A DNA stretch of 11,953 bases from a virus. Taxonomy: Duplodnaviria; Heunggongvirae; Uroviricota; Caudoviricetes. Shown here one piece after another: positions 9,001 through 11,953 of the stretch. The position numbers were made by a program. Within the stretch, counting starts at the first letter, position 1; every line of letters starts with the position of its first letter. The stretch lies in IMG/VR virus record IMGVR_UViG_2563366976_000008, positions 1-11,953 of that record. One strand, given 5' to 3'.

Positions 9001-11953
9001 GTTATCACTTCTGCTCTCATTGCTGGTTTGCGCTTGCATTGCAAGACCACTCGTGAGGGGGTTGGCCTGTGTAGCTTGTCGGAGCTGATCGCCTCCTGAC
9101 TTTGCAGATTTGCACGACGAGCTCTACGGCGAGAAGCTGCGGTTCCTTTAAATTCTGTTTTTCTGGACATAGATTCCTCCCGAATAAACTTTGGCGATGC
9201 AATCTCGAAGCCCCTCCTGAGACGGTTGCTTCGGCATTGCATCCCACAGCTTATGTGGTTGGGTGATCTGGCTTTTCAGCCACGTAGTCGAGTGTTCGAC
9301 GTTGTTTAAAGAGCCTGCCAATCTTTTCCGTTTGGCTACCAGCGTCCTGCTGATGGAAATAATAGTCACATATTGTGATTTAATGGTCAATCACAAAATG
9401 TGTAAAATAAGGGTGTGACACGTTATGTGTATGATTTTTTTGTGTAAATAGTTTTCCCCGCGATGGGTTTGCTTACTTAAGGCGGGGGAAACAGCAGGAT
9501 GGTGTGCTGAAAAGTTCGAAAAACGAGCGAAGTAGGTGGTGACGAGATGGCGGGATATGGGAGTTGTATTAAGAATTATAGTAATTTAATCAGAGGCTTG
9601 GGCTGGCTGGCAGGTGCTGTCCTGATAGTTATGTGCAGGCAACAAAAAACCCGGGGCGGTTCAGGTTGTCTCATTTTTTAGTTTGCTTTGGATTCGGTTT
9701 GTCTCTTCTTCCAATTATAAACACGCTAGTTAAAGCAACTAACTCAGCACCAAGAAGCCCGGTAGCCCAGCCATAAGCCTCGTGCTGAATCATCTTGTAA
9801 GCAATTCCTGCGAAAACAAAGACAGAAGTCATCGCAAAGATCTGTCCGAGTCGATCTCGCCAAATTGCTCCCCTCTGTCCTGCTTTGTAATACTCGTGTC
9901 TGTGTTTTTGCTCAGCCTTAGCCATGTCCATTATTTCGCGAGCGAATCCTGGAGATATTCTTTCGTACTTAGCTAATTCGTCAGCGTCTGGGAGTGGCCC
10001 TGATCTAGTGTGAGTCACCTGCATCATGATGCCAGCTAGATCTGGCCTGTCCATGAGGCGCTCAAGAACTTGAGGGTTCTTTGCGACCTCATTTATAAGC
10101 AGTTCGGTTTTACCGTCTTGAACTCGCCCTAACGGAGTTGGTTGGTTAACAAGATTTCTCGGTGCGGCGGTTTGAAGCTTTCTTTGGGATTTTTTTCTGC
10201 TCATTATCAGTTACAGCGTCTCTAACGTAACTACCTACCTTAACCCAATCTGAGTTGATAAGGTCGATGTCTGTAGCATTTGAATGATACTCGCTGTAGC
10301 TACCTGCTGGGCAAAGGTCAAGGATAGAGCCCATAGCGCTGAAAAAGTGCTTTGCAGATTTTTTCATGTGGGGTGTCCTATATGTTGTTTACTCTAATTT
10401 GAGTAATTGAAGTTTACGCAAAACCTAGCTTTCAGCAAGCAATACAGCACAAAAAATCATGTAAATTTGCGTCTATTTTTATCTACCGGAAAAATGCTCA
10501 ACAACTTTAGAGAAAAAATAGCAATACCAAATCAAACCAATTGCTGCTTCGCCTCTACCCAAACGTCTCTTCAGGCCACTGAGCCTTAACTACCTTGCCT
10601 ATGATGCGGCATGTGTGATCGCAGTCCAGGGTTCTGTATGCCGGATTCAATGGAACCAAGTAACTAACCCCTGCATCCTTCTCATACTTCTTGAACGTTG
10701 CCTCTGAATCACCATTTGCAGAAGCCACGCAGAAATCCCCAGACTCTACCGGCTCGGCCGGATCAACGAGTATCAGCATACCCTCAGGAAAACTCGGCCT
10801 TACGCCCTGTGGCGCAGTCATAGAATGGCCTTTCACCTCAAGCCAGAAAGCTTTTTCGCTGGCTTTTGTGGTCGTTGGGACCCATGCCTTTGCATCGCTT
10901 GCTGTGTAGCTTCCAACCTCCGAAAACGGCCCGGCCTGCACTGAAGAAAATAACGGGTACTCATATTGGCGAAATACAGCGTCTGAATCCTCGCCAAACA
11001 TTATTTTTGCCGGAGATACGCCGAGTGCCGCCCCAAGAACCAGCGCGTCATCCGCGCTAACCTTTCTTGTTCCTAACTCGTAGTTCCCCAGGCGTGAAGG
11101 CGCAGCCCAGCCGCAAAGCTTGGCCAATTGAGCCTGGCTAAGTCCTTTAGCTTCTCTAAGGGACTTGATCCTTTCCCCGATAATTTCATGCATCGTTTTC
11201 ATCCTTTAAATGTAACACGCAACGTGATTGAACTCTGTACACGAATTGAGGTTGACTGTTAATCACAAATTGTGTGTAATGGGTGTGTGATTAATACTAG
11301 GGAGACCGCAATGAACAAAATTGCCCAGCAGCGAAAAAAAATCGGAGTTTCGCAAGCTGTACTGGCTTCGGCAATTGGTTGGGGGCAATCCCGCATCGCC
11401 AACTATGAGCTGAATATCCGTACTCCTAGACTTAACGATTGCCGAAAGATCGTAGAAGGCCTCAGGAAGTTAGGGTGCCAATGTTCTTTGGATGATGTTT
11501 TCCCTCCATCCAGTAACAAAGCCGCCTAAGCAGTACCCGCTCTTTGTAACAACGGACATTCGTCCTACGTCGCTGAAAAGCGAGTCCCAAGATATCTGAC
11601 CAACTAAGGCCATATGCGTTTCCACGCATACCTTTCAACTAACTATTCACTATTGGAAATCTTAAGAAATGGAAAGAACAAGTTACAGCAAACTATCACA
11701 GCGTGACGTTGATCGCGCTGAAACAGATTTACTTATCAACCTGTCAACGCTTACTCAGCGCGGTCTGGCAAAGATGATTTGAACCGCCCCGGGAATCCTG
11801 GAGACTAAACTTCCTGAGAAAGAGGTAAACAGGATGACTAAAAATACTCGTTTTTCCCCTGAAGTCCGTCAACGGGCAGTCCGTATGGTTCTGGAAAGTC
11901 AGGGCGAATATGACTCACAATGGGCGACAATTTGTTCCATTGCTCCAAAGATT

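What the first reader, a model, noticed from the sequence alone, without database searches (positions are those of the whole stretch)
11538..11583. nutR with boxA and a TGAAAA-loop boxB matching nutL
The independent recurrence of boxA (CGCTCTTTGTAACAACG here, GGCTCTTTAAACAACG at nutL), a small intervening hairpin and a stem-loop with the identical TGAAAA loop on both sides of the immunity region strongly supports functional nut sites. The phage-specific boxB loop pairs with this phage's N.
Basis: seen in the sequence. Interest (0 to 1): 0.4.

Follow-up and report, generated by a model that had tools for sequence, protein, structure and literature searches.

The report
Prophage nutR antitermination site, tetraloop boxB
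This is the right-hand N-utilisation (nut) site of a lambda-like prophage, an ordinary and well-understood RNA signal that lets the phage N protein make RNA polymerase ignore terminators; its one unusual trait is a hairpin loop one base shorter than in the versions studied experimentally.

Summary
Window 11538-11583 (+) reads boxA CGCTCTTTG, TAACAAC, hairpin GGAC-ATTC-GTCC, TACG, then boxB TCGCT-GAAA-AGCGA. A twin lies on the minus strand at 9269-9315, between pL and N. The interpretation (nutR/nutL serving this phage's N) is supported. The sites sit after cro and before N. N matches Pfam N_peptide (E 3e-32). The composite motif occurs only at these two places (0 expected).

In about 290 related loci the boxB loop tracks the N arginine-rich motif without exception. 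RRRxRRAxLQ-type N (this 90-aa N and the Salmonella epsilon34/g341c 120-aa N) always has a GNRA tetraloop (GAAA or GCAA). RRRERLKAKA-type N (H-19B, HK97, 933W) always has GACAA, even when the cro type is the same.

Stems show compensatory changes, and variation falls in loops and flanks.

The architecture is the H-19B type: boxA, spacer "reducer" hairpin, boxB. The identical 14-nt boxB is already annotated as putative NutR in phage g341c.

The "TGAAAA loop" is better read as a U-A-closed GAAA tetraloop.

Here cII is cut by an IS3-family element 196 bp downstream.

Verdict: an ordinary known kind of element with modest interest; the tetraloop class appears untested experimentally.

The parts
11538..11583 (+). 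nutR as a whole (boxA, ACAAC, spacer hairpin, UACG, boxB)
   Evidence: Identical or near-identical in all 227 nutR sites found by a structure-blind flank anchor across both N classes.
11538..11546 (+). nutR boxA core CGCUCUUUG, the predicted NusB-S10 binding site
   Evidence: Matches the lambda/rrn boxA core GCUCUU(U)A known to me. NusB-NusE recognise 8 nt of boxA (PMC3177189).
11549..11553 (+). ACAAC motif directly 5' of the spacer hairpin
   Evidence: ACAAC/ACAAT is invariant in every nut site of both N classes, even those lacking GCUCUU.
11554..11565 (+). spacer hairpin GGAC-AUUC-GUCC (H-19B-type 'reducer')
   Evidence: Same sequence as in H-19B nutR. Variants GGGC/GUCC keep pairing. Loop variants AAUC and ACUC occur.
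11566..11569 (+). UACG linker between the two hairpins
   Evidence: Present in all nut sites surveyed, although UACG was itself used as an anchor in some of these extractions.
11570..11583 (+). nutR boxB: stem UCGCU/AGCGA, GAAA tetraloop at 11575-11578. Predicted binding site of the N arginine-rich motif.
   Evidence: -5.7 kcal/mol alone. Identical 14-mer annotated 'Putative NutR' in phage g341c. Loop tracks the N motif class.
11611..11630 (+). hairpin CAUAUGCG-UUUC-CACGCAUA region downstream of nutR, a candidate tR1 region
   Evidence: The corresponding position (non-homologous sequence) in VT1-Sakai is annotated as a putative rho-dependent terminator, and the corresponding region in g341c as putative tR. 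No U-run follows, so it is not an intrinsic terminator by the scan. Inferred only.
11311..11529 (+). cro (72 aa, HTH_3)
11252..11280 (+). pR region (TTGACT ... TGTAAT) with operators
   Evidence: sequence. Homologous stretch annotated as major rightward promoter in VT1-Sakai AP000400. Not found by the strict consensus scan.
11669..11782 (+). cII, truncated after codon 37. The stop TGA is supplied by the IS end.
   Evidence: H-19B cII is 98 aa
11780..11953 (+). left end of an IS3-family element (IS629-like by my recollection) inserted in cII
   Evidence: (annotated as IS3 family transposase in matching genomes)
9269..9315 (-). nutL: boxA GGCUCUUUA (9315-9307), ACAAC (9305-9301), hairpin GUCGA-ACAC-UCGAC (9300-9287), UACG (9286-9283), boxB UGGCU-GAAA-AGCCA (9282-9269)
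   Evidence: boxB intact in 157 of 157 anchor-found sites. Variation is confined to the spacer-hairpin loop.
8898..9170 (-). N gene (90 aa from ATG 9170, GGAGG 6 nt upstream). Arginine-rich motif GTAASRRRARRANLQSQ.
   Evidence: (PF25694, E 3.4e-32). 100% identical to N of phages 2851, YYZ-2008, 1717, 2G7b and the Stx1 converting phage.
9342..9390 (-). pL (TTGACC ... TATTAT) and start of the leader CAUCAGCAGGACGC
   Evidence: Leader invariant in 5 phages. Homologous stretch annotated pL in VT1-Sakai and HK106.
10555..11202 (-). cI repressor (215 aa, HTH plus Peptidase_S24)

Best explanation
Window 11538-11583 is nutR. With nutL (9269-9315, minus strand) it forms the RNA recruitment sites for the prophage's own N antiterminator (8898-9170, minus strand).

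Proposed sequence of events:
1. RNA polymerase starting at pR transcribes cro and then nutR.
2. On the nascent RNA, NusB-S10 bind the linear boxA (CGCUCUUUG).
3. The spacer hairpin GGAC-AUUC-GUCC folds and draws the flanking ACAAC and UACG next to boxB.
4. The N-terminal arginine-rich helix of N (SRRRARRANLQSQ) docks on the boxB hairpin. This is a 5-bp stem closed by U-A and capped by a canonical GAAA (GNRA) tetraloop.
5. With NusA and NusG, the RNA-tethered N converts the polymerase into a termination-resistant form. That form reads through tR1 into cII-O-P, and from nutL into the leftward recombination and integration genes.

Specificity for this N class, as opposed to the H-19B/933W class, lies in the loop. 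The H-19B/933W class uses an otherwise identical nutR with a GACAA pentaloop. The difference is the presence or absence of the extruded C.

What is shown: sequence, position, folding potential, conservation, compensatory changes, and association between N motif and loop.
What is inferred: binding, Nus-factor dependence and read-through.

In this particular prophage nutR is intact, but cII is interrupted 196 bp downstream of boxB by an IS3-family element.
For: 1. Anatomy and position match the nut sites of lambda and its relatives. The homologous positions are annotated as nutL/nutR in VT1-Sakai, HK106 and 24B.

2. The spacer, UACG and boxB stem are identical to H-19B nutR, a site used in published N antitermination assays (PMC3526286).

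3. N belongs to the N_peptide family.

4. The motif occurs twice against 0 expected, both times in the sense orientation of the early transcripts.

5. Conservation with informative variation:
- boxB is intact in 157 of 157 short-N nutL sites and in all 227 nutR sites (both N classes) found by flank anchors that ignore structure. SNPs accumulate immediately 3' of boxB, 5' of boxA and in the spacer-hairpin loop.
- Compensatory stem changes occur at boxB pair 1 (U-A, C-G, A-U, G-C) and pair 2 (G-C, C-G).
- Spacer stems GUCGA/UCGAC, GGAC/GUCC and GAUUC/GAAUC all pair. G.U variants are tolerated.

6. Association between N motif class and loop, with no exception:
- RRRxRRAxLQ goes with a GNRA tetraloop in the 90-aa N, the POCJ13 clade (nutL GCAA) and the 120-aa Salmonella g341c/epsilon34-type N.
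- RRRERLKAKA goes with GACAA.

7. The same cro types occur with both N classes, and the nutR loop follows N rather than the immunity type.

8. Isolated, viable phages (2851, 2G7b and others) carry the same N, nutL and nutR.

9. Lambda and P22 N recognise GNRA-like folds of their pentaloops (PMC12550061; PMC12027372). A true GNRA tetraloop is therefore a plausible ligand.
Against: - No experiment on this N/boxB pair was found in the searchable literature.
- The N motif lacks the tryptophan that stacks on the loop in lambda N (own knowledge). The binding geometry may therefore differ.
- With lambda N, a loop without an extruded base binds N but is reported to be poor for NusA-dependent complex formation (own recollection of Legault 1998 and Chattopadhyay 1995). 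A tetraloop is thus not trivially equivalent.
- For H-19B N, boxA and NusB are dispensable (own recollection of Neely & Friedman 2000). Salmonella relatives lack boxA. The boxA step is therefore the least certain.
- Thermodynamic folding gives an alternative structure pairing boxA with the boxB 3' arm at slightly lower energy. The z-scores are weak, -1.5 and -2.1.
- Many surveyed loci are near-clonal, so the raw counts overstate independence.
- Linkage of N and both boxBs outside the exchangeable immunity cassette could produce part of the association without selection.
Confidence: 0.9

Rival explanations
1. The conservation reflects recent common descent and physical linkage only. The element type may once have been a nut site, but this copy is an inert relic of a defective prophage.
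For: - cII is cut by an IS3-family element 196 bp downstream.
- No complete RefSeq E. coli genome holds this exact arrangement.
- Most surveyed loci have 98-100% identical N, so they are closely related.
Against: - N, nutL and nutR are all intact here and identical to those of isolated viable phages.
- SNPs accumulate right next to the elements but not in them.
- Compensatory changes and the motif-loop association across three N backbones and two host genera need selection.
- By classic lambda genetics (own knowledge), N-modified polymerase reads through IS insertions, so the IS does not make nutR useless.
Confidence: 0.07
2. The two hairpins act mainly as part of the Rho-dependent tR1 terminator (rut site) or as an RNA processing or stability element, rather than as an N binding site.
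For: In lambda and H-19B the nutR and rut/tR1 sites overlap, and Rho footprints on the spacer (PMC3526286). A further hairpin follows at 11611-11630.
Against: - The same architecture recurs at nutL, upstream of N, where no tR1 equivalent is expected (PMC3526286 says nutL has no overlapping Rho terminator).
- The loop co-varies with the N arginine-rich motif, which a rut or processing role does not predict.
- No U-run follows either hairpin.
- The two roles are not exclusive.
Confidence: 0.02
3. The functional RNA is the alternative fold in which boxA pairs with the 3' arm of boxB. In that fold the spacer hairpin sits at the tip, forming a switch that masks both elements until host factors or N open it.
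For: - It is the minimum-free-energy structure at both window sites: -12.3 against -11.7 kcal/mol at nutR, and -14.9 against -12.8 kcal/mol at nutL.
- The first boxA base (C at nutR, G at nutL) matches the differing base in the boxB 3' arm (G, C).
- The title of Neely & Friedman 2000 speaks of alternative NUT RNA structures.
Against: - The z-scores are weak.
- The pairing cannot form in H-19B nutL or in g341c nutL and nutR, which lack GCUCUU, yet these keep hairpin, UACG and boxB.
- nutL variants with U as the first boxA base break the match.
- The boxB stem compensations support the boxB hairpin itself.
Confidence: 0.01

Closest known systems
H-19B nutR/nutL (also HK97, 933W, HK106, 24B), served by the 127-aa H-19B-type N
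   Same: - At nutR, ACAAY, the spacer hairpin GGACAUUCGUCC, UACG, the boxB stem UCGCU/AGCGA and about 90 nt of downstream sequence are identical.
- nutL has the same architecture with a different spacer hairpin.
- The N proteins share the N-terminus M(S/T)R(K/R)T(E/Q)FKG, EAISS..LHRPT and the C-terminus CLPNVALYAAGYRKSKQLTAR.
   Different: - The boxB loop is GAAA (4 nt) here and GACAA (5 nt) there.
- The N arginine-rich motif is SRRRARRANLQSQ here and SRRRERLKAKALANG there.
- N is 90 aa here and 127 aa there, about 40% identical.
- The window has good boxA at both sites, whereas H-19B nutL has none.
Salmonella phages epsilon34 / g341c putative NutR
   Same: - The 14-nt boxB UCGCUGAAAAGCGA, the spacer hairpin and UACG are identical at nutR.
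- nutL also has a GAAA tetraloop (CGGCU-GAAA-AGCCG).
- The N motif is of the same class, GRRRERRAALQNA.
- The epsilon34 genome paper predicted a novel BoxB specificity for that N (PMC2629481).
   Different: - The N backbone is the long (120 aa) type.
- There is no GCUCUU boxA at either site.
- The host is Salmonella.
- The nutL spacer hairpin is GAUUCA-GUGA-UGAAUC.
Phage lambda nutR/nutL with lambda N
   Same: - The order is boxA, spacer, boxB.
- The boxA core is CGCUCUU.
- boxB has a 5-bp stem closed by U-A and a G-A-rich loop.
- The arginine-rich motifs resemble each other: lambda TRRRERRAEKQAQ (own knowledge) against SRRRARRANLQSQ here.
- The pL leader begins AUCAGCAGGACGC (lambda sequence from own knowledge).
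   Different: - Lambda's loop is a GAAAA/GAAGA pentaloop that mimics GNRA by extruding base 4 (PMC12027372). Here the loop is a true tetraloop.
- There is no Trp18 equivalent (Glu at that position).
- Lambda has no spacer hairpin.
- The C-terminal halves of the two N proteins are unrelated in sequence.
Phage P22 nut sites with gp24 (N)
   Same: - The boxB stem is GCGCU/AGCGC-like with a U-A closing pair.
- The N C-terminus matches (LPGVALYAAGHRKSKQITAR, matched at residues 67-90).
- Both belong to the same Pfam family.
   Different: P22's loop is GACAA, with the C looped out and contacted by the peptide (PMC12550061). The arginine-rich motif is of a different class.
Phage 21 / VT1-Sakai nut sites
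   Same: - Same genomic positions.
- VT1-Sakai has the same cI-cro immunity module as the window and shares sequence up to CCCGCUCUUU of boxA.
   Different: boxB is a longer stem with a CUAACC hexaloop (PMC12550061). N is of the phi21 type.

Membership tests
N-utilisation (nut) sites of lambdoid phages | Lies in the early transcripts: nutR between cro and cII/tR1, nutL between pL and N, in the sense orientation | tested here: met
   nutR lies 9 nt after the cro stop (11529) and 86 nt before the cII ATG (11669). nutL is on the minus strand between pL (9359-9390) and N (ATG 9170).
N-utilisation (nut) sites of lambdoid phages | Linear boxA close to (C/U)GCUCUU(U)A, located 5' of boxB | tested here: met
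   CGCUCUUUG at nutR and GGCUCUUUA at nutL. The consensus is from own knowledge. The figure of 8 nt recognised by NusB-NusE comes from PMC3177189.
N-utilisation (nut) sites of lambdoid phages | boxB: short hairpin with about a 5-bp stem, a U-A closing pair, and a purine-rich loop adopting a GNRA-type fold | tested here: met
   UCGCU-GAAA-AGCGA and UGGCU-GAAA-AGCCA fold alone at -5.7 and -6.3 kcal/mol. Compensatory pair changes occur across relatives. The loop is 4 nt rather than the 5-6 nt of characterised sites.
N-utilisation (nut) sites of lambdoid phages | [quoted passage not shown] | tested here: met
   PF25694 N_peptide at 111.3 bits against a cut-off of 27.9, and phrog_271.
N-utilisation (nut) sites of lambdoid phages | boxB specificity matches the N arginine-rich motif (phage-specific pairing) | tested here: met
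   Perfect motif-loop association in about 290 loci, covering 40 distinct motif/nutL/nutR combinations. This is comparative evidence, not biochemical.
N-utilisation (nut) sites of lambdoid phages | N- and Nus-dependent read-through of downstream terminators | not testable with these tools
   Needs a reporter or in vitro transcription assay.
H-19B-type nut sites (boxA, spacer dyad 'reducer', boxB) | Dyad symmetry (hairpin) in the spacer between boxA and boxB | tested here: met
   GGAC-AUUC-GUCC is identical to H-19B nutR. At nutL, the stem of GUCGA-ACAC-UCGAC is invariant while its loop varies.
H-19B-type nut sites (boxA, spacer dyad 'reducer', boxB) | boxB with a GACAA pentaloop, served by the 127-aa N with motif RRRERLKAKALANG | tested here: not met
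   The loop is GAAA, and N is 90 aa with motif RRRARRANLQSQ. It is a sister class, not the same specificity group.
Lambda-specificity nut sites | GAAAA/GAAGA pentaloop boxB (GCCCUGAARAAGGGC) | tested here: not met
   The pattern is absent from the window. Among 298 loci it occurs only in the hybrid L047.
Rfam curated RNA families | Match to any curated covariance model at the nut sites | tested here: not met
   No family matched at 9269-9315 or 11538-11583, even at E up to 10. Only the cIII thermoregulator RF01804 was found elsewhere. No Rfam family matched either nut site.

The most novel reading that the evidence does not exclude
This N/boxB pair may be a fourth natural specificity class of N antitermination, besides lambda, P22/H-19B and phi21. 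In it the arginine-rich motif (RRRxRRAxLQ, with no tryptophan) would read a genuine GNRA tetraloop with no extruded base. A single-nucleotide indel in the loop (GAAA against GACAA) would then suffice to insulate it from the co-circulating H-19B/933W class. The two classes share the rest of nutR and often co-reside in the same host genome. This would make the pair a minimal natural model for how peptide-RNA specificity switches, and for whether NusA needs an extruded loop base.
Probability: 0.45. Interest if true: 0.45.

Novelty: new member of a known kind. Interest (0 to 1): 0.3.

Why it matters
As a nut site it is textbook biology, and it helps annotate the early regulatory region of a widespread family of E. 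coli, Shigella and Stx-converting prophages. The same N, nutL and nutR occur in phages 2851, 1717, YYZ-2008 and Stx1 converting phages. In such phages N-dependent read-through ultimately drives Q and toxin expression.

The modest extra value is comparative. Two N classes use nutR sites that differ consistently only by one loop nucleotide, and the difference tracks the arginine-rich motif perfectly. This gives a clean, testable natural example of a switch in RNA-peptide specificity. It is also a natural boxB that is a true GNRA tetraloop, the fold that the lambda and P22 pentaloops merely imitate.

Tried and rejected
- Rfam at gathering thresholds and at E up to 10: no family at either nut site.
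- PDB sequence search with N: no hit, because the solved N peptides are too short or divergent.
- Genome-contig scan with an N alignment: only 2 loci, both probably contaminants in a Segatella MAG and a Xanthomonas draft, so of no use.
- E. coli complete-genome search: no genome holds at least 80% of window 8800-11953 in one place, so the source strain was not identified.
- The sigma-70 consensus scan missed pL and pR. I relied instead on homology to annotated promoters.
- MAFFT alignment of 28 distinct nut sequences (A4): no gap was placed in the pentaloop, and the non-homologous spacer hairpins are out of register. I therefore did not use the count of structure pairs and tabulated pairs by script instead. 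My first tabulation required pairing to detect sites and was circular. I repeated it with flank anchors blind to structure.
- Papers not held in the library: Sato 2003, Cocozaki 2008, Weisberg & Gottesman 1999. Neely & Friedman 2000 was not among the papers my searches returned; I did not look it up by id. Statements from that paper are from memory and are marked as such.
- One literature search was swamped by 'nutrition' hits.
- I considered whether a short N paired with a lambda-type nutR is common, which would imply cross-specificity. Only one locus (L047) shows it, and the isolated phage 2G7b has the cognate GAAA nutR.
- I rejected reading the hairpins as intrinsic terminators, because no U-run follows either of them.
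Full report
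**What is in the sequence**

The stretch 11538-11583 (+) reads CGCTCTTTGTAACAAC GGACATTCGTCC TACG TCGCTGAAAAGCGA. It begins 9 nt after the stop codon of a 72-aa HTH protein, cro (11311-11529). It ends 86 nt before the ATG of a cII homologue (11669).

It consists of:
- GGCTCTTTAAACAAC (9315-9301);
- GTCGAACACTCGAC (9300-9287);
- TACG (9286-9283);
- TGGCTGAAAAGCCA (9282-9269).

nutL lies between a pL-like promoter with the leader CATCAGCAGGACGC (9342-9390) and a 90-aa ORF that starts at ATG 9170 behind a GGAGG.

Between the two sites lie:
- cI (10555-11202, minus strand; HTH plus Peptidase_S24);
- two accessory ORFs;
- a terminator for the cI transcript.

The composite pattern occurs only at these two places, with 0.00 expected. 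A looser a priori definition is GCTCTT followed within 70 nt by a GNRA tetraloop closed by at least 5 bp. It gives 2 observed against 0.08 expected, and 7 of 2000 shuffles reach 2.

**Refinement of the anatomy**

The T before and the A after GAAA can pair. boxB is therefore a 5-bp stem (UCGCU/AGCGA at nutR, UGGCU/AGCCA at nutL) capped by a GAAA tetraloop.

The two copies differ by a compensatory G-C to C-G swap at the second stem pair.

The intervening hairpins have unrelated sequences (GGAC-AUUC-GUCC and GUCGA-ACAC-UCGAC). Both end exactly at an invariant UACG, and both are preceded by ACAAC.

Folded alone, the boxB hairpins give -5.7 and -6.3 kcal/mol.

**The protein**

The 90-aa ORF matches Pfam PF25694 (Transcriptional antitermination N peptide) at 111 bits against a cut-off of 27.9. 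It also matches phrog_271.

It is 100% identical to the N of isolated phages 2851, YYZ-2008, 1717, 2G7b, the PA series and the Stx1 converting phage AP005153.

It is about 40% identical to the 127-aa N of H-19B, HK97 and 933W. The two share both termini but differ in the arginine-rich motif: GTAASRRRARRANLQSQ here against GNSRSRRRERLKAKALANG there.

**Comparison with annotated relatives**

GenBank records annotate nutL and nutR at the homologous positions in VT1-Sakai, HK106 and 24B.

VT1-Sakai has the window's cI-cro module but a phi21-type N and phi21-type boxBs. Identity with the window ends inside boxA, after CCCGCTCTTT.

H-19B, HK106 and 24B nutR are identical to the window from the spacer hairpin onward for about 100 nt, except that the loop is GACAA instead of GAAA.

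H-19B nutR is an experimentally used N site with two hairpins (PMC3526286). From my recollection of Neely & Friedman 2000, a paper my searches did not return and that I did not look up by id:
- the spacer hairpin is the 'reducer' described for H-19B;
- H-19B N needs NusA but not boxA, NusB or S10.

I fetched 80 loci with 98-100% identical N and 80 around the 85%-identical POCJ13 N. I also fetched 80 around H-19B N and 80 around the Salmonella g341c N, plus GenBank records. Many loci are duplicates or near-clonal.

Using downstream flank anchors that ignore structure, boxB was intact in all 227 nutR sites, all 157 short-N nutL sites and 83 of 84 long-N nutL sites. The exception is the SPN9CC type, which has a different hairpin.

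Substitutions are common immediately 3' of boxB (GUCCCA, GUUCCA, GCCCCA, AUCCCA), 5' of boxA, within boxA (CUCUUU against CUAUUU) and in the spacer-hairpin loops (ACAC, ACUC, CUC, AUC, GCAC; AUUC, AAUC, ACUC). They do not occur in the stems, in UACG, in ACAAY or in the boxB loop within a class.

Stem changes are compensatory or wobble:
- boxB pair 1 is U-A, C-G, A-U or G-C;
- boxB pair 2 is G-C or C-G;
- spacer stems GGGC/GUCC, GAUUCG/UGAAUC and GAUUC/GAGUC all keep pairing.

**Loop type tracks the N arginine-rich motif**

Every locus with an RRRxRRAxLQ motif has a GNRA tetraloop at both sites. This holds for:
- the 90-aa N;
- the POCJ13 clade, where nutL is GCAA, still GNRA;
- the 120-aa Salmonella g341c/epsilon34-type N, which has the long H-19B-like backbone but this motif class;
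- a 73%-identical outlier, L293.

Every locus with an RRRERLKAKA-type motif has GACAA. There are 40 distinct motif/nutL/nutR combinations and no exception.

The same cro (immunity) types occur with both N classes, and the nutR loop follows N, which lies kilobases away across the immunity region.

Part of this linkage could be mechanical, because both boxBs lie outside the exchangeable immunity cassette. However, the two nutR types are otherwise nearly identical, so recombinants should arise easily, and none was seen.

One locus, L047, pairs the short N and its GAAA nutL with imm-lambda and lambda's own GAAAA nutR. It may be a defective hybrid, a chimeric contig, or a hint that this lambda-like motif tolerates lambda's pentaloop.

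**Mechanism proposed**

1. Polymerase from pR transcribes cro and nutR.
2. NusB-S10 take boxA.
3. The spacer hairpin shortens the distance between ACAAC and UACG-boxB.
4. The N arginine-rich helix binds the GNRA tetraloop and the 5' side of the stem.
5. NusA and NusG join, and the modified polymerase reads through tR1 and later terminators.
6. nutL does the same for the leftward operon.

Lambda N reads a GNRNA pentaloop that folds as GNRA with one base flipped out, and it needs the U-A closing pair (PMC12027372). P22 N reads GACAA with the C looped out and contacted by the peptide (PMC12550061). A real GNRA tetraloop is thus the fold that both pentaloops imitate. Presence or absence of the looped-out C is a plausible discriminator between the two classes.

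These steps are inferred. Only sequence, position, folding potential, conservation and co-variation are shown.

**Caveats**

- The RNA can also fold so that boxA pairs with the boxB 3' arm, at slightly lower predicted energy. That pairing cannot form in relatives lacking boxA, so I give it little weight.
- boxA is absent from H-19B nutL and from both g341c sites, so it may be accessory here too.
- In this prophage cII is truncated after codon 37 by an IS3-family element beginning at 11780.
- nutR is intact, but the operon it serves is interrupted.

**Known or new**

The kind of element is textbook. The architecture is that of H-19B.

The identical 14-nt boxB is already annotated 'Putative NutR (similar to NutR Epsilon34)' in phage g341c. 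The epsilon34 genome paper predicted a novel BoxB specificity for its N (PMC2629481).

I found no experimental work on the tetraloop class in the searchable library. That library omits most subscription journals.

I therefore file this as a new member of a known kind. It carries a moderately interesting, testable side issue: a natural GNRA-tetraloop boxB, and a one-nucleotide specificity switch.

Noticed in passing
L047 (IMGVR_UViG_2531839234_000006), nutL about 3740-3790 (+), lambda nutR 1072-1103 (-): This is the only mismatch among 298 loci. The short 90-aa N and its GAAA nutL are combined with the lambda cI, cro, cII and lambda's own nutR (GCCCTGAAAAAGGGC). It could be a defective hybrid, a chimeric contig, or a hint that this lambda-like arginine-rich motif also accepts lambda's pentaloop.
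   Followed up: partly
window 11669-11953: cII is truncated after codon 37 by an IS3-family element whose end (TGAACCGCCCCGGGAATCC...) starts at 11780. The IS supplies the stop codon. The prophage's rightward operon is interrupted just downstream of nutR.
   Followed up: partly
window 9641-9667 (-) compared with 11780-11796 (+): The terminator-like hairpin after the accessory genes downstream of cI contains TGAACCGCCCCGGGTTT. It shares 14 bases with the terminal repeat of the IS element inserted in cII. This may be coincidence, an IS remnant or a preferred target.
   Followed up: no
window 11530-11547, compared with L002 4221-4240: The mosaic junction between the VT1-Sakai-type immunity module and the N-specific nut module falls inside boxA. 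Identity runs through CCCGCTCTTT and then stops. boxA thus seems to serve as a recombination linker between modules.
   Followed up: partly
window 11549-11553 and 11566-11569; 9301-9305 and 9283-9286 (-): ACAAC (or ACAAT) directly 5' and UACG directly 3' of the spacer hairpin are present in every nut site of both N classes (UACG was itself used as an anchor in some extractions). They are kept even where the GCUCUU boxA is absent (H-19B nutL, g341c nutL and nutR). They may be the sequences that the 'reducer' hairpin brings together.
   Followed up: partly
window 11534-11590 (+) and 9262-9320 (-): The predicted minimum-energy fold at both nut RNAs pairs boxA with the 3' arm of boxB, with the spacer hairpin at the tip. 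Energies are -12.3 against -11.7 kcal/mol and -14.9 against -12.8 kcal/mol for the two-hairpin fold. The first boxA base (C or G) matches the differing boxB base (G or C). The pairing is not conserved in relatives without boxA.
   Followed up: partly
IMG/VR contigs from taxa 2671180656, 2529293213, 641736224, 2703718801, 2703718811 (for example L006/L180, L029/L191, L023/L188): Prophages with the tetraloop-class N and with the GACAA-class N co-reside in the same host genomes. This would favour insulation between the two antitermination systems.
   Followed up: no
L246 (Salmonella phage SPN9CC), nutL about 3390-3410 (+), nutR between cro and cII (-): This phage has an H-19B-like N motif but an odd pair of boxBs. 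nutR is UCGCU-GACAA-GGCGA, with a U.G closing pair. nutL is GCUC-CGUCAAC-GAGC, with a different loop. Seven loci share this arrangement.
   Followed up: no
window 7123-7181 (-): There is a strong match to the lambda cIII thermoregulator RNA (RF01804, 88.5 bits).
   Followed up: no
window 9671-10367 (-) and 8337-8876 (+): Three accessory genes lie in and beside the immunity region. Two are cotranscribed with cI: a DUF2335 membrane protein (phrog_3996, moron) and a small phrog_26284 protein. The third is a SieB-like superinfection exclusion gene, convergent with N.
   Followed up: partly
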